A stretch of 64,000 bases of DNA from Planctomycetota bacterium (GTDB lineage Bacteria > Planctomycetota > MHYJ01 > JACQXL01), in NCBI GenBank assembly GCA_043801445.1, contig JAZDMB010000030.1:78178-142177 (forward strand). Reading direction: 5' to 3'. Within the stretch, counting starts at the first letter, position 1; each line of letters begins with the position of its first letter. The notes below the pieces were generated by a model. That model saw only the letters and a list, made by a program, of their open reading frames with translations, was not told the DNA's origin and searched no databases. Shown piece after piece: positions 3,617 through 54,055 of the stretch. The position numbers and the translations under genes are program-made.

Positions 3617-3865
3617 TAATGATGAAACCACGGATACACACTGATAAACACTGATTTTCATTATTCGTATTAATCAAATCCATAAATAAACACAGATTAT
3701 CTGCGTTCATCTGCCTGCCTACTTGGTGTTAATCTGTGGTTGCAATTTTAGATATCATCATTTTTGGAATATAATCATTCTTACAAATTAATCTTCAATT
3801 TATTTGACCTGACTCATATCGAATGTTATGCTTTATAAAAAGTCATAGGATTCCTATAAAATAAT

Positions 3866-4420: not shown

Positions 4421-5379
4421 AATCAGAGAAACAAATTATCTGGAAACATAAACACCTTTTGGGTCTGGAAGAGCTTACTTCCGCTGAAATCAATCATATC
4501 CTGGATACGGCCGAGTCATTCAAGGAAATCTCTACGCGGAATATCAAGAAGGTTCCCACGCTCAGAGGCAAGGTAGTCGTTAATATGTTTGTCGAGCCGA
4601 GCACGCGGACCAAGATGTCATTTTCTCTGGCTGCAAAAAGACTCAGTGCCGATATAATAGACTTCTCGCCTTCTACCAGCAGTCTTTCCAAAGGAGAAAC
4701 CCTGAAAGATACGGCTCGTAATATCGAAGCAATGGGCATTGATATCGTAATTATCAGGCATACCTCTCCGGGCGCTCCTCATATGTTATCGCGTATCATA
4801 GATGCCAGTGTTATTAATGCCGGCGACGGCGCTCATGAACATCCGACTCAGGGACTGCTGGACATTTTTACTATGCGCGAACAAAAAGGCAAAATAAAAG
4901 GGCTCAAGGTCGCGGTCGTGGGGGATATTCTGCATAGCCGTGTGGCAAGAAGCAATATCTGGGGGCTGACAAAACTCGGCGCCGAAGTCATTGCGGTCGG
5001 TCCGCCTACTTTAATACCGGTCCAGCTCCGTGATATGGGAATTAAGATTTCTTATAATCTCGATGAGGTTATACCCGAAGTGGATGTAATAAATATTTTA
5101 CGGATTCAACTGGAACGCCAGAGAAGTAAATTCTTTCCTACAGTCAGAGAATATGCCAGGCTATTCGGAATAAATCCGGAACGGCTCAAAAATGCAAAGA
5201 AAGATGTAATGATAATGCACCCCGGACCTATTAACCGCGGTGTGGAAATTACACCGGACATTGCCGATGGTAAACAATCAGTCATATTACGACAGGTAAC
5301 TAACGGATTATCGGTCCGTATGGCTGTCTTATACTTGGTTTCAGGTTCTTATGGAACAGATGAAACGGAACCATTGTAA
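4417..5379 (+). CDS. pyrB: aspartate carbamoyltransferase catalytic subunit
   Basis: Carbamoyl-phosphate binding motif '[10 protein letters not shown]' (STRTR), 'HPTQGLLD' (HPxQ), and 'HPGP' near the C-terminus. Confidence 0.9.
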
Positions 5380-5584
5380 AGGAGTGAAGTTAAGCCACCG
5401 ATTACACAGATTGAAAAGATAGTAAGCGGATTGAACTGATAATACGCCTATACGGGTGTTAAATCAGATTACTCTTTAATTAAAAATTAATCGGTGAAAT
5501 TCGGACATAAATATAAATTAAACAACAAATTACACTGATTTAATAACTTAATCTGTGTAATCTGTGGCTAAATGATTAATCATT

Positions 5585-8727: not shown

Positions 8728-8916
8728 TAGGCTGTCTAAAAAGCAACCACAGATACACACCAAGTAGGCAGGCAGATGGACACAGATAAATCAGTAGGTA
8801 GTAGGTAGAAAATAGTAGGTAGGAAAAACTCCCTACATTCTATCTCTTATAATATCAGTGTTTATCCGTGTTAATCTGTGGTTACGAAGTTTTCTTGAAA
8901 TAAAGGAGGATTTTAT

Positions 8917-10539: not shown

Positions 10540-11355
10540 ATGAAGAAAATTAAAATATATAAGTTAACTGTGCTTTTGATTGTTTCACTGACAATTGCAA
10601 GCGCGATTTATTATGCGGGTTGTTCAAGAAGTAGAAATGCTGACGAAAATAAAGATATCGATAGGGATCCTCTTGCTGAGATTGAAGGTCAAATTGACAG
10701 GAAATCTAAGGAGTTAAAGAATACCAACGAACGTATTAACGCTTTATATAGTGAAGACAGGTTGACAAGAAGCGCTGGTATCTGGTCATTAATTGAACAT
10801 CCAGACCCCATAGCAATACCTCATATTATGCAACTACTGAAAAATAACGATATAAGACTTAAAACTTTTTATAATAGGAATCATTCTGGCAAGTCACTTG
10901 ATGTATTTATTAGTATTGGTGCGCCTGTAATTCCCTATATTATAGATGAGTTTAGAACTTGTTTAACACAAATGCCCAGTGAGGAAAATGAGTTCTTTAT
11001 TGTGCTACTAGAAAATACGCTGTCGGAGATGACATCTTTTCCTGCGAGATATAATTATATTAACGGTTCATCTCAAGAAAAAATGGCGGTTTTACAATGG
11101 TGGATTGGTTGGTGGGAGAAAAATGGGGGACTGTCAAATATTACTTGGCGTAAAGATTCTATTAGAACTCATCAAAAAGATTTAACCTTAAGAAATATCG
11201 GGAGAGTTTCAACAATCAAGAAATTAAGACAATTAACCGGACTAAAATATAGCGAGGTAATTGTTAATACATCACCTGTAGATTATCCTCCAATGAAAGA
11301 CAGGAATGGTAATTTTCAAGGTTATCCTAATAAAGAAGATTTGAAGAAGTGGTAG
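10540..11355 (+). CDS. hypothetical lipoprotein (W-rich C-terminal region)
   Basis: Start 'MKKIKIYKLTVLLIVSLTIASAIYYAGCS' is a signal peptide with lipobox. The ORF ends at a TAG that is followed in-frame by a further 57 coding-like codons (see findings). Confidence 0.45.
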   Translation: MKKIKIYKLTVLLIVSLTIASAIYYAGCSRSRNADENKDIDRDPLAEIEGQIDRKSKELKNTNERINALYSEDRLTRSAGIWSLIEHPDPIAIPHIMQLLKNNDIRLKTFYNRNHSGKSLDVFISIGAPVIPYIIDEFRTCLTQMPSEENEFFIVLLENTLSEMTSFPARYNYINGSSQEKMAVLQWWIGWWEKNGGLSNITWRKDSIRTHQKDLTLRNIGRVSTIKKLRQLTGLKYSEVIVNTSPVDYPPMKDRNGNFQGYPNKEDLKKW

Positions 11356-12759: not shown

Positions 12760-12859
12760 TACTCGAGTACTTAGTACTAAAGTATCTTAGCGGCTAAATT
12801 CACCTGTGCCCGTAGGGTATACTTTCCTATACCGCGAGAAATCAGAAAGGAGAAATATT

Positions 12860-13834
12860 ATGAAAAACAGTGCAGCGATTCTGTTATTGGTAGTATTGGT
12901 AACTGTTTTTAATTATGGTTGCGGAAGCAGCAGCAGTGGTAGTTCTACCACCGCCGGGTCCACGACGGCCGTGGATGACTATGTTTGGGTGGCAAATTCT
13001 GGCGCTGTTACCCGCATTCTGAAATCAGATCCTGCTATCAGCACCACGATTACCGCGGGAGGTGGACGGGGAGTCGCAGTAGATGAAACCTATTGCTGGG
13101 CGGTAGAACAGGGCTCTAATTATATCATCCGCATCCTGAAATCAGACCCCGCTATCACGTCCACGATTGTGGTAGGAACTAACCCCTTTGGAATCGCGGT
13201 TGACGGGACCTATTGCTGGGTAGTAAATACTGGGTCTGCTAATGTCACCCGCATCCAGAAATCAAATACTGCTATTAGCGCCACGATTGGCGTGGGAAGT
13301 TCACCCCAGGACATTGCGGTAGACGCGACCTATTGCTGGGTGGCAAATCAGGGTAACGGCGCTAATAGTGTCACCCGCATCAAGAAATCAGACTTAACCA
13401 CGACCACGATTGCCGTAGGAACTAATCCCACCGGAATCGCGGTAGATGAGACCTATTGTTGGGTGGCAAATTATTATGATAATAATGTCAGCCGTATCTT
13501 GAAATCAAACCCGGCTATCAGCGACACGGTTACGGTGGAAAGTCGTCCAGTTGGAGTCGCGGTTGACGGAACCTATTGTTGGGTGGCAAATTATATTTCT
13601 TGCACTGTCACCCGCATCAAGAAATCAGACTTAACCACGTTCACGAGTCCGGTGGGAACTTCCCCTTGTGGAGTCGCGGTAGACGGAACCTATGTCTGGG
13701 TGACAAATTCTGTTGCTAATACTGTCACCCGTATCCTGAAATCAGACTTAAGCACAACCGCGATTGCGGTCGGAACTACTCCCGTATCGTTGGGCGATAT
13801 GACCGGCTATGCCTACGATAATTACGCCCGGTAG
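12860..13834 (+). CDS. YVTN-family beta-propeller repeat lipoprotein
   Basis: Lipobox 'NYGCGSSSSG'. About eight consecutive ~40-aa repeats 'TYCWVANxGxxxVTRIxKSDxxxxTTIxVGxxPxGIAVD' (YVTN 40-residue repeat). Confidence 0.65.
   Translation: MKNSAAILLLVVLVTVFNYGCGSSSSGSSTTAGSTTAVDDYVWVANSGAVTRILKSDPAISTTITAGGGRGVAVDETYCWAVEQGSNYIIRILKSDPAITSTIVVGTNPFGIAVDGTYCWVVNTGSANVTRIQKSNTAISATIGVGSSPQDIAVDATYCWVANQGNGANSVTRIKKSDLTTTTIAVGTNPTGIAVDETYCWVANYYDNNVSRILKSNPAISDTVTVESRPVGVAVDGTYCWVANYISCTVTRIKKSDLTTFTSPVGTSPCGVAVDGTYVWVTNSVANTVTRILKSDLSTTAIAVGTTPVSLGDMTGYAYDNYAR
12990..13790 (+). repeat. intragenic tandem repeat (~120 bp unit x ~7-8) encoding the YVTN propeller blades
   Basis: Recurring DNA blocks '...acctattgctgggtggcaaat...gtcacccgcatc(c/a)(a/t)gaaatcag...' visible at ~120-bp spacing. 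Confidence 0.7.
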
Positions 13835-19531: not shown

Positions 19532-19715
19532 GAACGTGAAACCACAGATAGACACGGATAAACACTGATTTTTATATGGGTTAATCAAATCCCGATTAAA
19601 CACTGATTATCTGTGTTCATCGGTGTTCATCTGTGGTTGTCATACCTGTGGCAGATCCGCCTTTGGCGGACAGTTTTCTTGACCCCGTTTGGAATATTTT
19701 ATATATTCATATAAT

Positions 19716-26504: not shown

Positions 26505-26690
26505 TGAATAATTTAAGATTGTTGCCAAAAATAACAATTTCACCCTGAACAAAATAACAAATCTTAAAGCTGTGCTTGATAACCTACCTAAGGTAAATTG
26601 TGATTCTTAGCTAAGTTTATTAAGTTTTCAGCGGGGCTCGAATAACACCGTTAATGAATTTCTAAACGGTCTCATATTGGATAAAGTTTT
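26505..26690 (+). ncRNA. conserved structured element (copy 1) in the cysS 5' leader region; second copy at 53745-53905
   Basis: Shares blocks with 53745-53905: 'agattgttg...caatttcaccctgaac', 'ctgtgcttg', 'acaccgtt...aacggtctcatatt'. Two hairpins are conserved with compensatory changes (attgtt-N9-aacaat vs attgttgac-ttt-gtcaacaat; accgtta-N-taaacggt vs accgttgaaa-N-tttcaacggt). Confidence 0.45.
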
Positions 26691-26742
26691 TTTGTTTTAC
26701 GCTTGACAGATAATAATATTATTTGATATGGTTTGTAGCACT

Positions 26743-28179
26743 ATGCCTTTATATCTTTACAATACCTACTCTAAACAAAAAGAGGAATTTAAACCGATAG
26801 AACCGAGTAAGGTGCAAATTTATTCCTGCGGTCCAACGGTTTATAGCCATCCTCATATCGGTAATTTTCGTTCATTTATCGCCGCTGATATTTTATGCAG
26901 GTATTTACGTTACAAGGGTTATGAAGTTACCCAGGTAATGAATATAACTGATGTCGGTCATCTGACCACTGATGACAACCTATCGGCTGATGCTGAGGGT
27001 GTTGATAAGATTCAGTTAGCAGCCCAATCTGAAATGAAGACGCCAAAAGAAATTACAGAGTTTTATGCTAATAAGTTTTTTGAATTAGTTAAAACATTGA
27101 ATCTACATCCAGCCAATCATTATCCTAAGGCAACTGACCATATCCCCGAAATGATTGAAATGGTGAAAAAATTATTAGAAAAGAATTGTGCCTATGAGGT
27201 TGACGGTAATGTTTATTATGATATTAGCCGTTTTGAGAAATACGGTAAACTTTCAGGTAATACGCTGGAAAATTTGAGGGCCGGGGTAAGGGTTGAGGTT
27301 AAGAGTGATAAAAGAAACCCGATGGATTTTGCATTATGGAAACAAGACCCGAAACATCTGATGCAATGGGATAGTCCATGGGGCAGGGGATTTCCGGGCT
27401 GGCATATTGAATGTTCGGCTATGTCATTAAAATATCTGGAAGATAATATCGATATTCATACAGGTGGCGAGGATAATATCTTCCCACATCACGAATGTGA
27501 GATTGCCCAATCAGATGCTTTTACAGGGAAACAGGTTGTTCAACATTGGTTCCATACAAGACACCTTTTAGTGGATAATCAGAAGATGTCAAAATCTCTG
27601 GGTAATTTCTATACTGTAGATGATATTTTAAAGCAGGGATATCATCCACTGGTCTTGAGATATGCCTTGATGAGCAGTCACTATCGCCAGCAGATAAATT
27701 TCAATATGGAATTATTGAAATCAGCGCACGGTGCAATCGAAAGACTCAGAAATTTCAAAATAATGATAGATAATAATATTAAAATTAATGAACCAATTCA
27801 CGGAACTCTTAAAATCAATAATCTATTAATTAAGGTAAAAAAATCATTTGAGGAATCACTTGATGATGACCTTAATATTTCCGAAGCACTCGGGGTTATA
27901 TTTGATTTCGTAACAGAGGTAAATAAGTTACCAATTTCCTTTAGTGATGCGGCAAATATAAAACAACTTATGAATGATTTCGATAAGGTATTGGGTATAT
28001 TAGAAATAGAAAAAACTGAAAGTCTTGATGATGAAATAACAAAACTGATTAATGAGAGAGAAGATGCACGAAAAAGAAAAGATTTTAAGCGTGCTGATGA
28101 AATAAGAGATATTCTATATAAGAAAAGAATTATTTTGGAAGATAATCTAAATGGTACAAGGTGGAAAAGAGTATTATAA
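26743..28179 (+). CDS. cysS: cysteine--tRNA ligase
   Basis: Class I aaRS motifs 'HIGNFRSF' (HIGH) and 'KMSKSLGN' (KMSKS). 'CGPTVYSHPHIGN' N-terminus typical of CysRS. Confidence 0.9.
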   Translation: MPLYLYNTYSKQKEEFKPIEPSKVQIYSCGPTVYSHPHIGNFRSFIAADILCRYLRYKGYEVTQVMNITDVGHLTTDDNLSADAEGVDKIQLAAQSEMKTPKEITEFYANKFFELVKTLNLHPANHYPKATDHIPEMIEMVKKLLEKNCAYEVDGNVYYDISRFEKYGKLSGNTLENLRAGVRVEVKSDKRNPMDFALWKQDPKHLMQWDSPWGRGFPGWHIECSAMSLKYLEDNIDIHTGGEDNIFPHHECEIAQSDAFTGKQVVQHWFHTRHLLVDNQKMSKSLGNFYTVDDILKQGYHPLVLRYALMSSHYRQQINFNMELLKSAHGAIERLRNFKIMIDNNIKINEPIHGTLKINNLLIKVKKSFEESLDDDLNISEALGVIFDFVTEVNKLPISFSDAANIKQLMNDFDKVLGILEIEKTESLDDEITKLINEREDARKRKDFKRADEIRDILYKKRIILEDNLNGTRWKRVL

Positions 28180-43636: not shown

Positions 43637-43798
43637 ATATGTTTTTCAACATTTTATACTAAAGATAAATTAACTTAGCAAGAAGAAAGAGAAAGATATG
43701 ACAATTAATCTGTGTAATCTGTGGCTCAAGTTTAGCTCCTAAAAAGCCGATAAATACTTAACATCACTAATATATAATTCTTCAACAAGGAGTATGTT

Positions 43799-47530: not shown

Positions 47531-47984
47531 GCAACGACTTGCGGGAGTCCCGACCGAACGTCGGGGGATGCCTGCCTGCGCTAAAGCTTCGGCGGGTAAT
47601 CCATACCTAATTATCCATCCGTAAAATCTGTTTTATCAGTTTAATCCACTTACAGATTCTTCGTATTTCTTACACACTAATATTAAATCCGTGTTCATCT
47701 GAGTTCATCTGTGTCCCATATTTCTTTGCGGTGAATCTTCTCTTAACCTACCTACTACCTACTTCATACTGCATACTACATACTATTAATTCGTGTCAAT
47801 CTTGTGAAATCTGTGGTTACGTTTCGGTTTTTATTTACCGTATTCCTCTTTCTTCTATCCGTAAGGATACCATAAGTAACGGGTTTGTTACTTATCCGGC
47901 AGGTATGAGAAATGAAGGTTTCATCTAACTTCTTGATTTGAAATGGATTAGAAAAAATAAAAAAATATGCAGAAATCCGAAAAT

Positions 47985-48250
47985 AGCACTCTCTGTTACT
48001 TATGGGGACCTATCCACTACGGGATTCTACCCTACCTACCTATGGTTATATGGGGTATATCCTATGGTTAGTAGGGATACTACCTATGGTTATATGGGGT
48101 ACTACCTATGGTTAGTAGGGATACCTCCTATGGTTATATGGGATACTACCTATGGTTATATGGTATACCTCTACTGGAGGGTACGGTATCCCCCCTGGGT
48201 AGGTAGGGTAGTATAGGGGGGAGATAGGGGGATGGGGGTATACCTAATTT
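47985..48250 (+). repeat. degenerate tandem array (~22-bp unit 'tacctatggttatatgggGatac', ~8 copies) ending in a G-run block
   Basis: Unit copies are visible directly. Ends '...ggggggagatagggggatgggggtatacc'. Read-through ORF 47938-48216 is periodic and judged non-coding. Confidence 0.75.
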
Positions 48251-48647
48251 TGGTAAAGTGATGCCTTAAAACTGGTTTATATCGTTGGATTAACTAAAGA
48301 CGGTGGGTGTCATTAAGCCAAGTGTATAGTATAAAGTATGAAGTAGGTAGTATGTAGAAGGTAGGAGAAGAGAAGACGTAAGATTTGCCACAGATTAAGC
48401 GGATTTGGCGGAATGCCTCAAATAAACGGTGAATTGTCTTGACAAAGGATTAGGGAATATGTATTAATTCACAATAGATATGGATAATTCGGGTGACGCT
48501 CTCCTACGCTCTTTGAGCGGAGTTTATCCCGCTCACAGCGGGGGAAGGGCAAGCCATACCGCATAGTTAAGATGTCCACGGAATTATGCGGGTGACAGCA
48601 TACTGAATTCCAATAATAAATATGTATTATGTATCCTGAATATAAAT

Positions 48648-49337
48648 ATGAAAAAAGTATTTAACTTTCTGATTGTTATTGGGTTATTTATTATCGCTTA
48701 TATATGCTGGAAGTATCATGACGAGATTCGTAAAGATTGGTATTTATACTCAACTCTTATCCTTGCAAGCATTGCTATCTTTCAAGACCCAATAAAACGA
48801 TGGTGGAATAAACCAATATTAGTTTTCACCCACAAGGAAACAAGCCCTTTCAGAAGAGAAAATACACTACTTATAGAACCTACTCTAACAACTTCTAAAG
48901 TTCTTAGTACCTATGAATGTTTTATGGTAGAAAACAATGGACGAGGTTCTGCTTTACAATGCCGATGCCAAATTCGTGAAGTAAGACAAAATGGTAAATC
49001 TTTTGGTTGTTACAGAGGATATCCTTTACATTGGGCCCGTAGGCCAGATGCAGAAATTGACCCATTGAAAGCTGAAAGACTTAATATTGGTCCAGGGGAA
49101 AGCGAGTTTCTAGATTTATGTTTCACCGCGTCTATAGATTCCGATATCCATTTAGCAAAATATCATACAATACCTATCGGTATTCCCGACTTCATTCCAT
49201 CTGGCGTATATGAGGTTAAATTAATATTTAGTGGTGATAATTTTAAACCGTATTTCATAGTCTTTGAGATTAAAAAAGATAACTCAGCGAATATCAATAG
49301 TATCAGTGTCAAACTAATAAAATACTGGCAAGGATAA
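48648..49337 (+). CDS. hypothetical membrane-anchored protein (ORFan) enclosed by inverted repeat arrays
   Basis: N-terminal TM helix (FNFLIVIGLFIIAYICW), Cys-containing soluble domain. No family recognised. Confidence 0.45.
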   Translation: MKKVFNFLIVIGLFIIAYICWKYHDEIRKDWYLYSTLILASIAIFQDPIKRWWNKPILVFTHKETSPFRRENTLLIEPTLTTSKVLSTYECFMVENNGRGSALQCRCQIREVRQNGKSFGCYRGYPLHWARRPDAEIDPLKAERLNIGPGESEFLDLCFTASIDSDIHLAKYHTIPIGIPDFIPSGVYEVKLIFSGDNFKPYFIVFEIKKDNSANINSISVKLIKYWQG

Positions 49338-49595
49338 CTTACTAATTCGGGGGGACACCCAGCACATAACGGAATTATGTGCTGGGCAGGCCCTAATTCA
49401 TAATTCTTAATTATTAAAACTCTATGCCTTCAGACACCTTTCTACATCCTGATTCCGGTAAGGATATCCGCACAGACGAGACATTAATTGAATTCTGAAG
49501 ACACCACACCTAATTCGCACTTATTCTGACCCCCAAACCCCCATTTTCGGCTATTTTCGTTATTACAAAACCTTATAAATCAACCACTTATACAG

Positions 49596-50100
49596 GCAGG
49601 GGGGGGTATACCCCCTCTACTGCCTCAGTAGAGGGCATCTACTGGATTATTAACCCATATCTCCTGAGGTAGTAGGTGGCGTCTGCTGAGGTATCTGACC
49701 ACCTCTCCTAAGATAGTAGACTGTATCTGCTGAGGTACCTGACCATCTCTTCTGAGATAGTAGACGGCATCTGCTGGATTGTCAACACCCCGCCACTGAG
49801 TTAGGGGGTGGTATCTGCCGGATTGGCAGCCCATGTCTCCTGAGATAGGGGATAGTATCTGCTGGATTATTAACACATCTCTCCTGAGGTAGTAGACGGT
49901 ATCCGGTGAGTTACCCGACCATATCCCCTGAGGTAGTAGATGGTATCTGCTGAGGTATCCAACCATATCCCCTGAGGTAGTAGATGGTATCTGCTGAGAT
50001 ATCCAACCATATCCCCTGAGATAGTAGATGGTATCTGCTGGATTGTCAACACCCCTCCACTGAGTTAGGGGGTAGTATCTGCTGAGTTACCTCCACCCTG
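49596..50100 (+). repeat. degenerate tandem array (~45-bp unit 'ccatatcccctgaggtagtagatggtatctgctgaggtatccaa', ~9 copies), inverted relative to the 47985-48250 array
   Basis: Unit contains 'ggtatccaaccatatcccctgaggtag', which resembles the reverse complement of the upstream unit ('ggtatccccatataaccataggtag'). Begins with the palindrome 'ggggggtataccccc'. Confidence 0.7.
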
Positions 50101-50127
50101 ATTAGAAATTTTGGTTGTTAGATTATG

Positions 50128-51478: not shown

Positions 51479-53677
51479 TTATAAGAATTTAATTACTTTA
51501 CTGATACGCACGGTCCATTTTTCCTGGGGCTGCAGTTTTATTTCCCAGCGGGGCAGAATCACGGATGATTGGTAAACCAGTTCGAATCCGCTTTCGGACT
51601 GTGACACAGTCTGCACAGGGAAATACCATATCTGAGCCGGTTTAGTCAATTTAAAACCGATGTCTATCTTTTGGAATAAGTCCTTGATTCCGAATATTTT
51701 TTCATTACTTGATTCGCCTTCTGTAATAAGCGGTCCCAGATTGGGTTTACTGTCATAATAGAATCTGTCAGGCGCATTGCCGGCTAACATCGACAGGTTG
51801 AATTCGGGAGCAAAGATAGTTTCAAGATAGTCCGAACCGGTGTTTATAATCTCGTAATCTATCAAGAGGGTTTTATTGTCATTGGAATCAAATGCTATAT
51901 TCTTGCTGACTTTTATCGGGCATGGTTTTTCAGGTTTTTTAAGATAGCCGTCCCGATGGAATTGAACCGCAGTGTTGTTTTTAAGAATGGATATTTGGTA
52001 TTCATTGAGTATAAAATCGCCTTCTTCGTCATAATTACAACAGGCAAAATTCTTCAATGATGTATTTTTATCCAGGAAATGGTCAAGAAGACTCTGACGC
52101 GGGTACTTATCATAGTAGAGCAGGTTTTCCAAGCCGGCCACTTTGGACACAATAATATCGTGTATGGTGGCGACATTAGTAACATAATTTTTATCCTGCG
52201 CCTGAAGTATTTTCTGGTGATAGGATTCCTGTCTGCGTCTGAGCGTGGCTAAAGGATTGAACTTTTTAGGGATGATATCCATCTCGTAAAGAGCCGCTCC
52301 TTGAGATGGTTTGAAATAACAATTAATAATCCTGTTGGAATAACGTAATTCAGGATATCCGTCATAATCAAAATCACCCTTGTCTATCCGGTTTTTAGCC
52401 GTCTTTTGGGATGTTTCTGATTCGGAGATAATTTCTTCAGCCGTTATAAGATGCTGATAAATAGCGTGCCTGAGGTGGGGGAGATAGAATCCGCCGAAGA
52501 CGCCATGCCAATAGGCGCAATTACCCTGGCCTTGATAAAGTTCACGCCCGGCATCTGCCAATTTCCGGCTGTCTTTTTTATGATGTTGTTCTGCAGACGA
52601 TGCCAAAGCCTTGCTGACTTCCATCATCTTGGAATACATTATGTTTATCTCAGGGTATTTCACTAAGAAATTACGCCAGAAACCGCCGGGGTTAAGTGTA
52701 AATTCGGAAGAAGATGTCTGATGTTGCTTATTAGCCAGAGGCGGATCTGCCTCAGGCACAGGGTAGCAAGAAGAAGACCGCTTCCGATAGTTTTCATAGA
52801 GCGTTGCGGCATCAATTGATAAGACCCATTCCATCATTTCACGATAAGAACCGCTGGGGATATATGCTTTACCGATAGGCTTTATTTTATCTATGACTTC
52901 CGAATATGTCGTTATGTTGAGCCAGTCTTGGGCATCATTTAAGGCTTGGAAGAATCGTTCCAGCCAGCCGACGGGACTGCCGTAACAATGCTCGTATGTC
53001 TTGGGCCAAAGCCCGAATTTCTCGCCATCATCGGCATAGCAAATTACCGAATCAGTATTTTTATAACTGTCCTGCCGATAATGAGAGAGGTAATTTATCG
53101 TTTCTATCGGTTCTTTGAAAGGTATCATATAGCGGAGTCTTTCAGGAATAGGGAAAATAGAAATTGCCTTGCCCTGGTCTTCGCTGATAAAATAGCCCGA
53201 GAGTTCCTTATTCAAGAATCCGGTGGTCTTAAAATGGAAATCGTCTATTACAGTATATTCGACACCTGCTTGGGCTAAAGATTTTACGAGGCTTTGTTCC
53301 CAAACCCTTTCAGCCAGCCATATTCCACGCGGACGTTTACCGAAAAGCTTTTCCAGATAATCGCTGAATAGGGCAATCTGCCCGATTTTATCGTCATCTG
53401 TAAGCATCGTCAAAATCGGCTCATAAAAACCGCCGCCCAGTATTTCCAGCCTGCCGTCATTTACCATTTTTTGGAGGCGGCTGATAAATTTAGGATGGCT
53501 GCGTTTTAGGTATTCTAAAAGAGGACCGCTATAATGCATGCATAATTTTATCCGCGGGAATTTGTCTATTAAATTAAGGAATGGTTCATAACTCTGCCGA
53601 TAGGCTGATTCCATAATATCATCAAAATTACCCACAGGCTGATGATTATGGATGCATAAGATAAAATTTAGCGACAT
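51479..53677 (-). CDS. glycoside hydrolase family 57 protein (alpha-amylase / alpha-glucanotransferase / branching-enzyme type)
   Basis: 'LNFILCIHNHQPVGNF' (GH57 HQP motif), 'YEPILTMLTD', 'GIWLAERVWE' catalytic region. Additional C-terminal ~250-aa domain. Confidence 0.8.
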   Translation of the reverse strand: MSLNFILCIHNHQPVGNFDDIMESAYRQSYEPFLNLIDKFPRIKLCMHYSGPLLEYLKRSHPKFISRLQKMVNDGRLEILGGGFYEPILTMLTDDDKIGQIALFSDYLEKLFGKRPRGIWLAERVWEQSLVKSLAQAGVEYTVIDDFHFKTTGFLNKELSGYFISEDQGKAISIFPIPERLRYMIPFKEPIETINYLSHYRQDSYKNTDSVICYADDGEKFGLWPKTYEHCYGSPVGWLERFFQALNDAQDWLNITTYSEVIDKIKPIGKAYIPSGSYREMMEWVLSIDAATLYENYRKRSSSCYPVPEADPPLANKQHQTSSSEFTLNPGGFWRNFLVKYPEINIMYSKMMEVSKALASSAEQHHKKDSRKLADAGRELYQGQGNCAYWHGVFGGFYLPHLRHAIYQHLITAEEIISESETSQKTAKNRIDKGDFDYDGYPELRYSNRIINCYFKPSQGAALYEMDIIPKKFNPLATLRRRQESYHQKILQAQDKNYVTNVATIHDIIVSKVAGLENLLYYDKYPRQSLLDHFLDKNTSLKNFACCNYDEEGDFILNEYQISILKNNTAVQFHRDGYLKKPEKPCPIKVSKNIAFDSNDNKTLLIDYEIINTGSDYLETIFAPEFNLSMLAGNAPDRFYYDSKPNLGPLITEGESSNEKIFGIKDLFQKIDIGFKLTKPAQIWYFPVQTVSQSESGFELVYQSSVILPRWEIKLQPQEKWTVRISKVIKFL

Positions 53678-53744
53678 ATTTAGATTTTGTTCCCTAATTT
53701 CATATGTGTAGATTTAATTTTATATATATGAGATTGTTGACTTT

Positions 53745-53905
53745 GTCAACAATTTCACCCTGAACGAAGTGAAGGGTCTCAAACCCGCCTGACCGGATGA
53801 CCAGTCGAACAGAACTGTGCTTGGTGAGATTCTTCGCTTCCCACCGGGCCCCTGTGGGTCGCTCAGAATGACACCGTTGAAAGGTTTTTCAACGGTCTCA
53901 TATTA
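53745..53905 (+). ncRNA. conserved structured element (copy 2), paralogous to 26505-26690
   Basis: See copy 1. Both hairpins are retained with compensatory substitutions. Not positioned as a 5' leader of any + strand gene. Confidence 0.45.
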
Positions 53906-54055
53906 CGAATAAAGACAAGATTTTAATAAGATTTTGTAAGAGATGGAGAAACGATTGCCTAGAGATAAAAAGAAAAAGGGCGTTCCGATGTTTATCAGAA
54001 CGCCCTTGATTTAAATCAAGATGTTATATCACAGTTTCAGATAAAATGCAGCACC

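What the first reader, a model, noticed from the sequence alone, without database searches (positions are those of the whole stretch)
26505..26690. ~170-nt structured element with covarying hairpins, copy 1 (5' of cysS)
This segment and 53745-53905 share ordered sequence blocks and two hairpins whose stems differ by compensatory changes (attgtt-loop-aacaat vs attgttgac-ttt-gtcaacaat; accgtta...taaacggt vs accgttgaaa...tttcaacggt). Both end 'aacggtctcatatt'. Covariation argues for selection on RNA or DNA structure rather than recent duplication. Copy 1 lies in the cysS 5' region, which raised a T-box leader hypothesis, but copy 2 is not upstream of any same-strand gene. A small RNA family or a structured MITE-like repeat is more likely.
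Basis: seen in the sequence. Interest (0 to 1): 0.65.

Follow-up and report, generated by a model that had tools for sequence, protein, structure and literature searches.

The report
Small mobile palindromic repeat, not RNA
The two look-alike segments are copies of a small non-coding mobile DNA element (a MITE-like repeat) of an uncultured Planctomycetota lineage; one copy is a datable insertion with a 4-base target duplication, so this is ordinary selfish DNA, not a cysS leader and probably not an RNA gene.

Summary
The two copies are real: window 26515-26673 (degenerate) and 53730-53899 (intact). They share ordered blocks and hairpins, and they are the only copies in the 64 kb.

The claimed compensatory changes between them are not compensatory. 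Copy 1 simply has shortened, decayed stems.

Collection scans found about ten more copies, all in one Planctomycetota lineage. The compact form is 120 nt:
- a 12-bp terminal hairpin;
- an inverted doublet of a GAA-triloop hairpin;
- a second 12-bp terminal hairpin.

Compact copies are 93-98% identical although their flanks are unrelated. Seven of nine copies are flanked by 4-5 nt direct repeats (AAAT, ATAT, AATAT, AATTT).

The closest relative MAG has the same pilin-like/GH57 spacer without the element. The window becomes gaplessly colinear with it once the 170-nt element and one ATAT are removed. This is an empty site with a target-site duplication.

Copy 1 lies upstream of the conserved, near-leaderless cysS promoter, and relatives lack it there. 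Rfam finds nothing. Both strands fold equally well, and orientation relative to neighbouring genes is mixed.

Verdict: a non-autonomous transposable element (MITE-like), a new member of a known kind. The transposase was not found. The inner hairpin motif is widespread elsewhere.

The parts
53730..53899 (+). Copy 2: intact element, 170 nt. It is the 120-nt core plus two internal insertions. Orientation (hairpin 1 first) is a convention.
   Evidence: nhmmer E 3e-39; 93-96% identical to L040 over three blocks; absent from the orthologous spacer of L192.
53726..53729 (.). Left copy of the target-site duplication, ATAT.
   Evidence: Removing 53730-53899 plus one ATAT makes the window gaplessly colinear with L192.
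53900..53903 (.). Right copy of the target-site duplication, ATAT.
53730..53756 (+). Terminal hairpin 1: GAGATTGTTGAC ttt GTCAACAATTTC (12-bp stem with one G.T). It carries the left terminal inverted repeat.
   Evidence: Folds; 97% of cells paired over 9 copies.
53757..53780 (+). Inner hairpin, forward copy: ACCCTGAAC GAA GTGAAGGGT, followed by CTC.
   Evidence: It is a close variant (A for G in the stem, T for C next to the loop) of the widespread motif CAYYCTGAGCGAAGCGAAGRRTC, and does not match that consensus exactly.
53784..53813 (+). 30-nt G+C-rich insertion, absent from the compact copies.
   Evidence: Alignment with L040.
53815..53825 (+). Central spacer CTGTGCTTGGT between the two inner hairpins.
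   Evidence: Conserved in copy 2, L040, L150 and L157 (one mismatch in L158); copy 1 keeps CTGTGCTTG only.
53826..53869 (+). Inner hairpin, inverted copy: GAGATTCTTCGCTTC..CGCTCAGAAT, with a nested G+C-rich hairpin (CCCAC..GTGGG on the - strand) in its loop.
53870..53899 (+). Terminal hairpin 2: GACACCGTTGAA aggttt TTCAACGGTCTC. It carries the right terminal inverted repeat (its reverse complement GAGACCGTTGAA matches GAGATTGTTGAC at 9 of 12 positions).
26515..26673 (+). Copy 1: old, decayed copy (159 nt, 29% G+C). The ends are recognisable, the interior is degenerate and no flanking direct repeat is left.
   Evidence: nhmmer E 2e-13; CM 18 bits; folds like shuffles; flanks AATTT / ATATT.
26515..26541 (+). 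Remnant of hairpin 1 in copy 1; only ATTGTT/AACAAT still pair.
26644..26673 (+). Remnant of hairpin 2 in copy 1; ACCGTT/AACGGT pair.
   Evidence: family D14.
26703..26732 (+). Context: cysS promoter TTGACA-N18-TATGGT, downstream of copy 1. The cysS start codon is at 26743.
   Evidence: the same promoter is present in relative L184; the annotated product is 478 aa.
53976..54007 (-). Context: intrinsic terminator of the pilin-like gene. Copy 2 was inserted between it and the GH57 gene.
   Evidence: conserved in L192.

Best explanation
Both segments are copies of a small, non-coding, non-autonomous transposable element (MITE-like) that has spread in one lineage of uncultured Planctomycetota.

The 120-nt core has three parts: a 12-bp terminal hairpin (GAGATTGTTGAC/GTCAACAATTTC), an inverted doublet of a GAA-triloop hairpin around a 13-15 nt spacer, and a second 12-bp terminal hairpin (GACACCGTTGAA/TTCAACGGTCTC). 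The outer 12 bases of the two ends are inverted repeats (9 of 12 identical).

The element inserts into A/T-rich AWWT sites in intergenic DNA and duplicates 4-5 bases of the target.

Shown:
- insertion polymorphism with a target duplication at copy 2;
- flanking direct repeats in 7 of 9 copies;
- near-identical copies in unrelated flanks;
- deletion and insertion subfamilies that kept spreading;
- copy 1 is a decayed old copy lying upstream of the cysS promoter, not inside its transcript.

Inferred:
- A transposase supplied in trans makes a staggered cut. It is probably a DDE enzyme. From memory, GAG ends with a 4-bp duplication resemble the IS5 family.
- The terminal palindromes are its binding sites.
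- The hairpins reflect palindromic DNA rather than a selected RNA fold.
For: - Empty site. L192, from the closest relative MAG GCA_043807745.1, has the same pilin-like gene, spacer and GH57 arrangement. The spacers align at about 85% and become gaplessly colinear when window 53730-53899 plus one ATAT are removed.
- Flanking direct repeats. AAAT (L150, L157a, L097), ATAT (copy 2, L040), AATAT (L158) and AATTT (L157b) give 7 of 9 copies with a repeat of at least 4 nt. For mismatched left/right pairs the figure is 19 of 72. Permutation P = 0.005.
- Recent spread. Four compact copies from different contigs are 93-98% identical, with unrelated flanks. L157 holds two copies within 3.2 kb.
- Subfamilies. 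L097 and L031 share a deletion of the second inner hairpin and the loop insert ..ATAAACTCC. L157a shares that insert.
- No coding capacity and no protein relatives.
- All copies are intergenic and in mixed orientation.
- Both strands fold equally: RNA -56.9 vs -54.9 kcal/mol, DNA -30.4 vs -29.1 kcal/mol.
- No Rfam family.
- Narrow host range. Only two loci of one Planctomycetota MAG among 185,579 species genomes, and contigs of one metagenome series.
Against: - No transposase-encoding partner with the same termini was found in the window or in any held locus. The enzyme and its family are therefore guesses.
- The target ATAT lies in an (AT)n run, where slippage alone could change length by 4 nt.
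- Only nine full copies were available for the flank statistics, and three of them share the same AAAT.
- Insertions inside the element are always hairpin-shaped and sit in loops. In L157a hairpin 2 is replaced outright by an unrelated hairpin. This hints at a constraint on, or a mutational process acting on, single-stranded structure, which a plain double-stranded-DNA transposon model does not predict.
- Solo arms (L106, L163) and the widespread inner doublets, which show no visible duplication, resemble REP/REPIN biology.
Confidence: 0.8

Rival explanations
1. A REP/REPIN-like palindromic repeat. The unit is one arm (terminal hairpin plus inner hairpin, about 50 nt), found as singlets and inverted doublets. 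It would be spread through single-stranded DNA by a RAYT- or TIRYT-type tyrosine (HUH) transposase.
For: - Solo arms exist (L106 and L163).
- The inner hairpin is widespread as singlets and tail-to-tail inverted doublets: 70 instances in 64 viral-collection loci, 21 of them with a partner against 2% by chance.
- Its core GCGAAGC is the very stable DNA mini-hairpin (PMC13037366).
- 'Double palindromic' terminal repeats that occur singly, as dimers or in groups are described around tyrosine transposase genes (PMC3733652).
- An IS110-family element, a family that (from memory) targets REP-like palindromes, sits in such a doublet in L084.
Against: - Insertion with a 4-5 nt target duplication is not what IS200/IS605-type HUH transposition produces (established knowledge).
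- There is no GTAG or CGTC tag, read directly from the sequence against the definition in PMC3733652.
- No tyrosine transposase is present in the window.
- The generic doublets show no flanking repeats, whereas this family does.
Confidence: 0.1
2. A family of structured small RNA genes, or a MITE-borne RNA module that has been exapted, transcribed from one strand.
For: - Very strong predicted folds (z -7 to -8; z -7.1 for copy 2 on the minus strand).
- Hairpins are retained while the loops accept nested hairpins, and one stem is wholly replaced.
- One compensatory pair and several wobble changes in hairpin 1.
Against: - No Rfam match.
- No associated promoter or terminator.
- No strand preference in folding. 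G.U pairs favour opposite strands in different helices.
- Absent from orthologous sites in the closest relative.
- Mixed orientation relative to genes.
- Covariation is not above the controls.
- Copy 1 is decayed.
Confidence: 0.06
3. A cis-regulatory leader of cysS (T-box or other).
For: Copy 1 lies 5' of cysS on the same strand.
Against: - The cysS promoter (26703-26732) lies downstream of copy 1 and only about 10 nt from the start codon at 26743, which makes the mRNA near-leaderless.
- The same promoter without the element is present in L184.
- ispF abuts cysS in L189.
- No T-box hit, even at E<=10.
- Copy 2 and the other copies sit next to unrelated genes.
Confidence: 0.01

Closest known systems
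Bacterial MITEs (for example Correia/NEMIS of Neisseria, ERIC/IRU, RUP, cyanobacterial Nezha); cited from general knowledge
   Same: - 100-300 nt and non-coding.
- Terminal inverted repeats and short target-site duplications.
- Many intergenic copies, insertion polymorphism between close relatives, and highly folded when single-stranded.
   Different: - Each terminus is itself a perfect 12-bp palindrome.
- The duplication is 4-5 nt of AWWT, not TA.
- The interior is an inverted doublet of a hairpin motif that is widespread outside this family.
- No parent insertion sequence has been identified.
REP / REPIN / BIME elements and the TIR families around RAYT/TIRYT genes (PMC3733652)
   Same: Palindromic units occur as singlets and inverted dimers in extragenic DNA. 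'Double palindromic' arms occur. Insertion sequences target them.
   Different: There is no GTAG or CGTC tag and no tyrosine transposase nearby. This family makes target duplications and has an exact empty site.
d(GCGAAGC) mini-hairpin DNA (PMC13037366)
   Same: The inverted inner hairpin contains GCGAAGC on the minus strand. This gives a GAA loop closed by C-G with a sheared G.A pair. The forward copy has the variant ACGAAGT.
   Different: The mini-hairpin is a biophysical motif known from phage origins and promoters. It is not a repeat family, and no role is shown here.
T-box leaders of aminoacyl-tRNA synthetase genes
   Same: Only the position 5' of a tRNA synthetase gene.
   Different: There is no T-box sequence or Rfam hit. 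The element lies upstream of the promoter and is absent in orthologues.

Membership tests
MITE (non-autonomous DNA transposon) | Short and non-coding | tested here: met
   Copies are 120-258 nt. The open frame has no start codon and no relatives among 5.8 billion proteins.
MITE (non-autonomous DNA transposon) | Terminal inverted repeats | tested here: met
   GAGATTGTTGAC against the reverse complement of the right end, GAGACCGTTGAA, matches at 9 of 12 positions. The whole ~55-nt arms are imperfect inverted copies.
MITE (non-autonomous DNA transposon) | Target-site duplication | tested here: met
   7 of 9 copies have 4-5 nt flanking direct repeats, permutation P = 0.005. An ATAT duplication is seen against the empty site in L192.
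MITE (non-autonomous DNA transposon) | Multiple dispersed copies with presence/absence polymorphism | tested here: met
   About 12 copies in unrelated flanks. The sites are empty or lack the element in the closest relative.
MITE (non-autonomous DNA transposon) | A related autonomous element with the same termini and a transposase | tested here: inconclusive
   None was found in the window or in 1.3 Mb of held loci. Whole genomes could not be scanned again. The IS110 element in L084 has no such termini.
REP / REPIN | 20-40 nt palindrome with a GTAG or CGTC tag at one end (PMC3733652) | tested here: not met
   No such tag is next to any of the four hairpins, read from the sequences.
REP / REPIN | Singlets and inverted doublets | tested here: met
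   Solo arms in L106 and L163. All other copies are doublets.
REP / REPIN | Associated RAYT (tyrosine/HUH transposase) gene | tested here: inconclusive
   None among the window ORFs of at least 180 aa that were scanned. The rest of the genome was not seen.
IS200/IS605-derived elements (PATE) | Insertion without target duplication, 3' of a fixed short target | tested here: not met
   Variable AWWT repeats occur on both sides, and there is an empty site.
T-box leader | Match to the T-box covariance model | tested here: not met
   No hit at gathering score or at E<=10.
T-box leader | Lies in the 5' UTR between promoter and start codon, and is conserved upstream of orthologues | tested here: not met
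   The promoter 26703-26732 is downstream of the element. The element is absent in L184, L185 and L189.
Small RNA gene family | Own promoter and terminator, and a strand-specific fold | tested here: not met
Small RNA gene family | Covariation beyond relatedness | tested here: inconclusive
   One compensatory pair. The measures are not clearly above shuffles because the sequences are too similar.
Small RNA gene family | A discrete transcript | not testable with these tools
   No transcriptome data were available.

The most novel reading that the evidence does not exclude
The functional core may be the inner inverted doublet of the hairpin TGTCAYYCTGAGCGAAGCGAAGRRTCTC, not the terminal repeats. 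This motif is widespread: 64 contigs of 37-69% G+C in the viral collection alone, against about 0.1 expected. It is built around the ultra-stable GCGAAGC DNA mini-hairpin and appears to be undescribed. It would be a pan-bacterial selfish or functional element that acts as folded single-stranded DNA or RNA. Its loops would be hot spots for nested hairpin insertions. In this Planctomycetota lineage it would have acquired terminal palindromes and a transposition mode that makes target duplications.
Probability: 0.15. Interest if true: 0.55.

Novelty: new member of a known kind. Interest (0 to 1): 0.3.

Why it matters
- It prevents a mis-annotation. This is a highly structured, repeated intergenic segment next to a tRNA synthetase gene, and it is neither a riboswitch or T-box nor a demonstrated small RNA.
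- It adds a MITE family to a poorly studied, uncultured Planctomycetota lineage. Its presence/absence sites can serve as strain markers, and its copies sit right next to promoters (cysS) and between a terminator and the next gene (GH57), where they could alter expression.
- The by-product may matter more. The inner hairpin motif is very widespread in metagenomic DNA, forms inverted doublets, and was not found in the searchable literature.

Tried and rejected
- Rfam at gathering score on the whole window, and at E<=10 on both regions, gave nothing relevant.
- T-box or leader idea: rejected on promoter position and on the relatives.
- The 18-mer in the viral collection gave only chance hits in coding DNA. 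The hairpin-1 palindrome there gave two chance hits in one phage gene.
- Exact look-up of three window proteins failed, probably because of start-codon differences. The rest of the 187-kb contig could therefore not be fetched.
- A search of the protein database with the element's open frame, used as a proxy for a DNA search, found no candidates.
- A covariance model of the core handled the internal insertions badly. It only confirmed that the window holds two copies.
- A search for the 12-nt termini far apart, which would mark an autonomous element, found none in the window or the loci held then (L001-L190). A Pfam sweep of 36 of the 43 window ORFs of at least 180 aa found no transposase; seven, most near the right end of the window, were not scanned.
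- A GIY-YIG gene is flanked by the inner motif in L248, but this is one locus of 64, so it is taken as coincidence.
- BLAST of all copy-bearing contigs against the window and the relatives, to find more empty sites, found none.
- Literature searches for the motif sequence found no relevant paper.

Full report
**Observation.** The two segments exist and are related. They share the blocks GATTGTTG, AACAATTTCACCCTGAAC, CTGTGCTTG, GAATRACACCGTT and AACGGTCTC in the same order. The 18-mer occurs twice in the window against 0.08 expected. A profile built only from copies found elsewhere hits both, at E 3e-39 and 2e-13, and nothing else in the 64 kb. Refined limits are 26515-26673 (copy 1, 159 nt) and 53730-53899 (copy 2, 170 nt).

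The 'compensatory' differences do not hold up.
- Copy 1 has lost the inner pairs of both terminal stems. GAC/GTC has become GCC/ATA, and a G-C pair has become A.A.
- Copy 1 folds like shuffled sequence (z about -1). Copy 2 folds strongly on both strands (z -5.2 and -7.1).

**Source and relatives.** cysS of the window is 100% identical to a protein of an NCBI Planctomycetota MAG, on a contig of 187 kb. The closest relative is MAG GCA_043807745.1, with cysS 83% and GH57 86% identical.

**More copies.** The exact 18-mer was scanned in 185,579 species genomes. Of 72 loci, only two were real, and both came from that relative MAG (L031, L040). The metagenome scan added L084, L097, L150, L157 and L158 as full or nearly full copies. 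It also added L106 and L163, an orthologous pair carrying one arm only, which the profile search recognised. The same search found a second copy in L157. All of these come from one series of metagenomes plus one other sample.

**Anatomy.** The compact form is 120 nt:
- GAGATTGTTGAC aaa GTCAACAATTTC (hairpin 1, 12 bp);
- ACCCTGAAC GAA GTGAAGGGT (inner hairpin);
- CTC, a spacer containing CTGTGCTTGG, then GAG;
- ATTCTTCGC TTC GCTCAGAAT (the same inner hairpin, inverted);
- GACACCGTTGAA gggttt TTCAACGGTCTC (hairpin 2, 12 bp).

The whole element is an imperfect inverted repeat of a ~55-nt arm. The outer 12 bases match their inverted counterpart at 9 of 12 positions. Both strands fold equally well: RNA -56.9 and -54.9 kcal/mol, DNA -30.4 and -29.1 kcal/mol, z -6 to -8. 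This is what palindromic DNA gives, not what a strand-specific RNA gene gives.

**Evidence for mobility.**
- The four compact copies are 93-98% identical although their flanks are unrelated and they come from different samples.
- Seven of nine full copies are flanked by direct repeats of 4-5 nt that differ between copies: AAAT three times, ATAT twice, AATAT once and AATTT once. The two exceptions are the most altered copies, copy 1 and L031. Mismatched left/right pairs match in 19 of 72 cases. Permutation gives P = 0.005.
- The decisive point is an empty site. The relative MAG has the same pilin-like gene, spacer and GH57 arrangement (L192). Its spacer is about 85% identical to the window's. 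It becomes gaplessly colinear with the window when 53730-53899 plus one ATAT are removed. The window reads GTA ATAT[element]ATAT ATATAAAAT and L192 reads GTA ATAT ATATAAACT. Copy 2 is therefore an insertion with a 4-bp target duplication.
- Subfamilies exist. L097 and L031 share a deletion of the second inner hairpin and a loop insert ending ATAAACTCC, which L157a also has.

**Against a cysS leader.**
- The cysS promoter TTGACA-N18-TATGGT (26703-26732) lies downstream of copy 1 and about 10 nt from the annotated start at 26743. cysS is therefore near-leaderless.
- The same promoter and start, without the element, are present in the relative (L184). In a more distant relative ispF abuts cysS.
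- No T-box or other Rfam family is matched.

**Against an RNA gene.**
- No promoter or terminator goes with the element.
- Orientation relative to neighbouring genes is mixed, and all copies are intergenic.
- On nine 5' arms, 94% of cells are paired but only one pair changes on both sides, and that comes from one orthologous pair of loci. The measures do not clearly exceed shuffles.

**What remains open.**
- No transposase with matching termini was found. The window is a housekeeping region with rho, pyrB, dnaG, rpoD, cysS and ispH. The enzyme is therefore inferred. From memory, GAG.. ends with a 4-bp duplication resemble the IS5 family.
- Insertions inside the element are always G+C-rich hairpins placed in loops or junctions: in copy 2, L157a, L097 and L031. 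In L157a hairpin 2 is replaced by an unrelated hairpin, CCCGATG/CATCGGG. This suggests either selection on a single-stranded fold or a palindrome-generating mutational process such as template switching. I could not tell which.

**The inner hairpin elsewhere.**
- CAYYCTGAGCGAAGCGAAGRRTC occurs in 64 loci of the viral collection, where about 0.1 is expected. Of 70 distinct instances, 58 are preceded by TGT, and 21 have a tail-to-tail inverted partner within 27-109 nt against 2% by chance. The contigs range from 37 to 69% G+C. No flanking duplication is visible.
- More distant relatives carry such doublets with other outer ends (L184, L185).
- Its core GCGAAGC is the very stable DNA mini-hairpin (PMC13037366).
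- REP-like families with singlets, dimers and 'double palindromic' arms are described (PMC3733652), but this motif has neither of their tags.
- In L084 an IS110-family element sits inside such a doublet, next to a truncated copy of the element.

**Verdict.** This is a MITE-like non-autonomous mobile element: a new member of a known kind, of modest interest. The widespread inner motif is the more interesting loose end.

Noticed in passing
L194-L257 (viral collection); also L184 275-338 and L185 8888-9006: The inner hairpin motif TGTCAYYCTGAGCGAAGCGAAGRRTCTC is widespread: 64 loci against about 0.1 expected by chance, in contigs of 37-69% G+C. It occurs as singlets and, in 21 of 70 cases, as tail-to-tail inverted doublets, with no visible target duplication. 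It yields the spurious peptides ..VILSEAKNL.. and ..ILRFAQND... No paper in the library holds the sequence.
   Followed up: partly
L084 126-1880: An IS110-family transposase gene (407-1780) lies between TGTCATTCTGAG and GAGATTCTTCGCTTCGCTCAGAATGACA. That places it inside an inner-motif doublet, next to a copy of the element that lacks hairpin 2. This fits the known taste of IS110 elements for REP-like palindromes (from memory).
   Followed up: partly
window 53976-54007 (- strand) and L192 about 5105-5140: The intrinsic terminator of the pilin-like gene is conserved in the relative MAG with changes on both sides of the stem that keep pairing (GCGTTCTGAT..ATCGGAACGC against GCGTCCCGAT..ATCGGGGCGC). 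This is a cleaner case of covariation than anything in the element.
   Followed up: no
window 26703-26743: The cysS promoter TTGACA-N18-TATGGT ends about 10 nt before the annotated start codon (26743), so cysS looks near-leaderless. The arrangement is conserved in L184.
   Followed up: partly
window 53614-53677: The GH57 ORF listed from 53677 is probably 21 codons too long. The closest homologues are 711-713 aa, and similarity to L192 and L191 begins at the ATG at about 53614.
   Followed up: partly
window 3623-3748, 5387-5572, 8738-8883, 19537-19575, 43705-43732: A second dispersed repeat family rich in CACAGAT/CACGGAT/CACTGAT units (for example AACCACAGATAGACACGGATAAACACTGATTTT) occurs in direct and inverted copies in several intergenic regions.
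   Followed up: no
window 47748-50126 and 13006-13783: Several tandem arrays: units of 22 nt (48036-48189) and 44 nt (49615-50126) in a region without long ORFs, and ~120-nt repeats inside the ORF 12806-13834, which has no Pfam match.
   Followed up: no
L248 10733-11226: A small GIY-YIG nuclease ORF (10844-11188) is bracketed by the inner hairpin motif. This was seen in only 1 of 64 loci, so it is probably a coincidence.
   Followed up: yes
window 26551-26640 (interior of copy 1): Compared with the family consensus, the interior of copy 1 differs mostly by G-to-A and C-to-T or C-to-A changes (29% G+C against 47-56%). This fits long decay under A/T-biased mutation.
   Followed up: no
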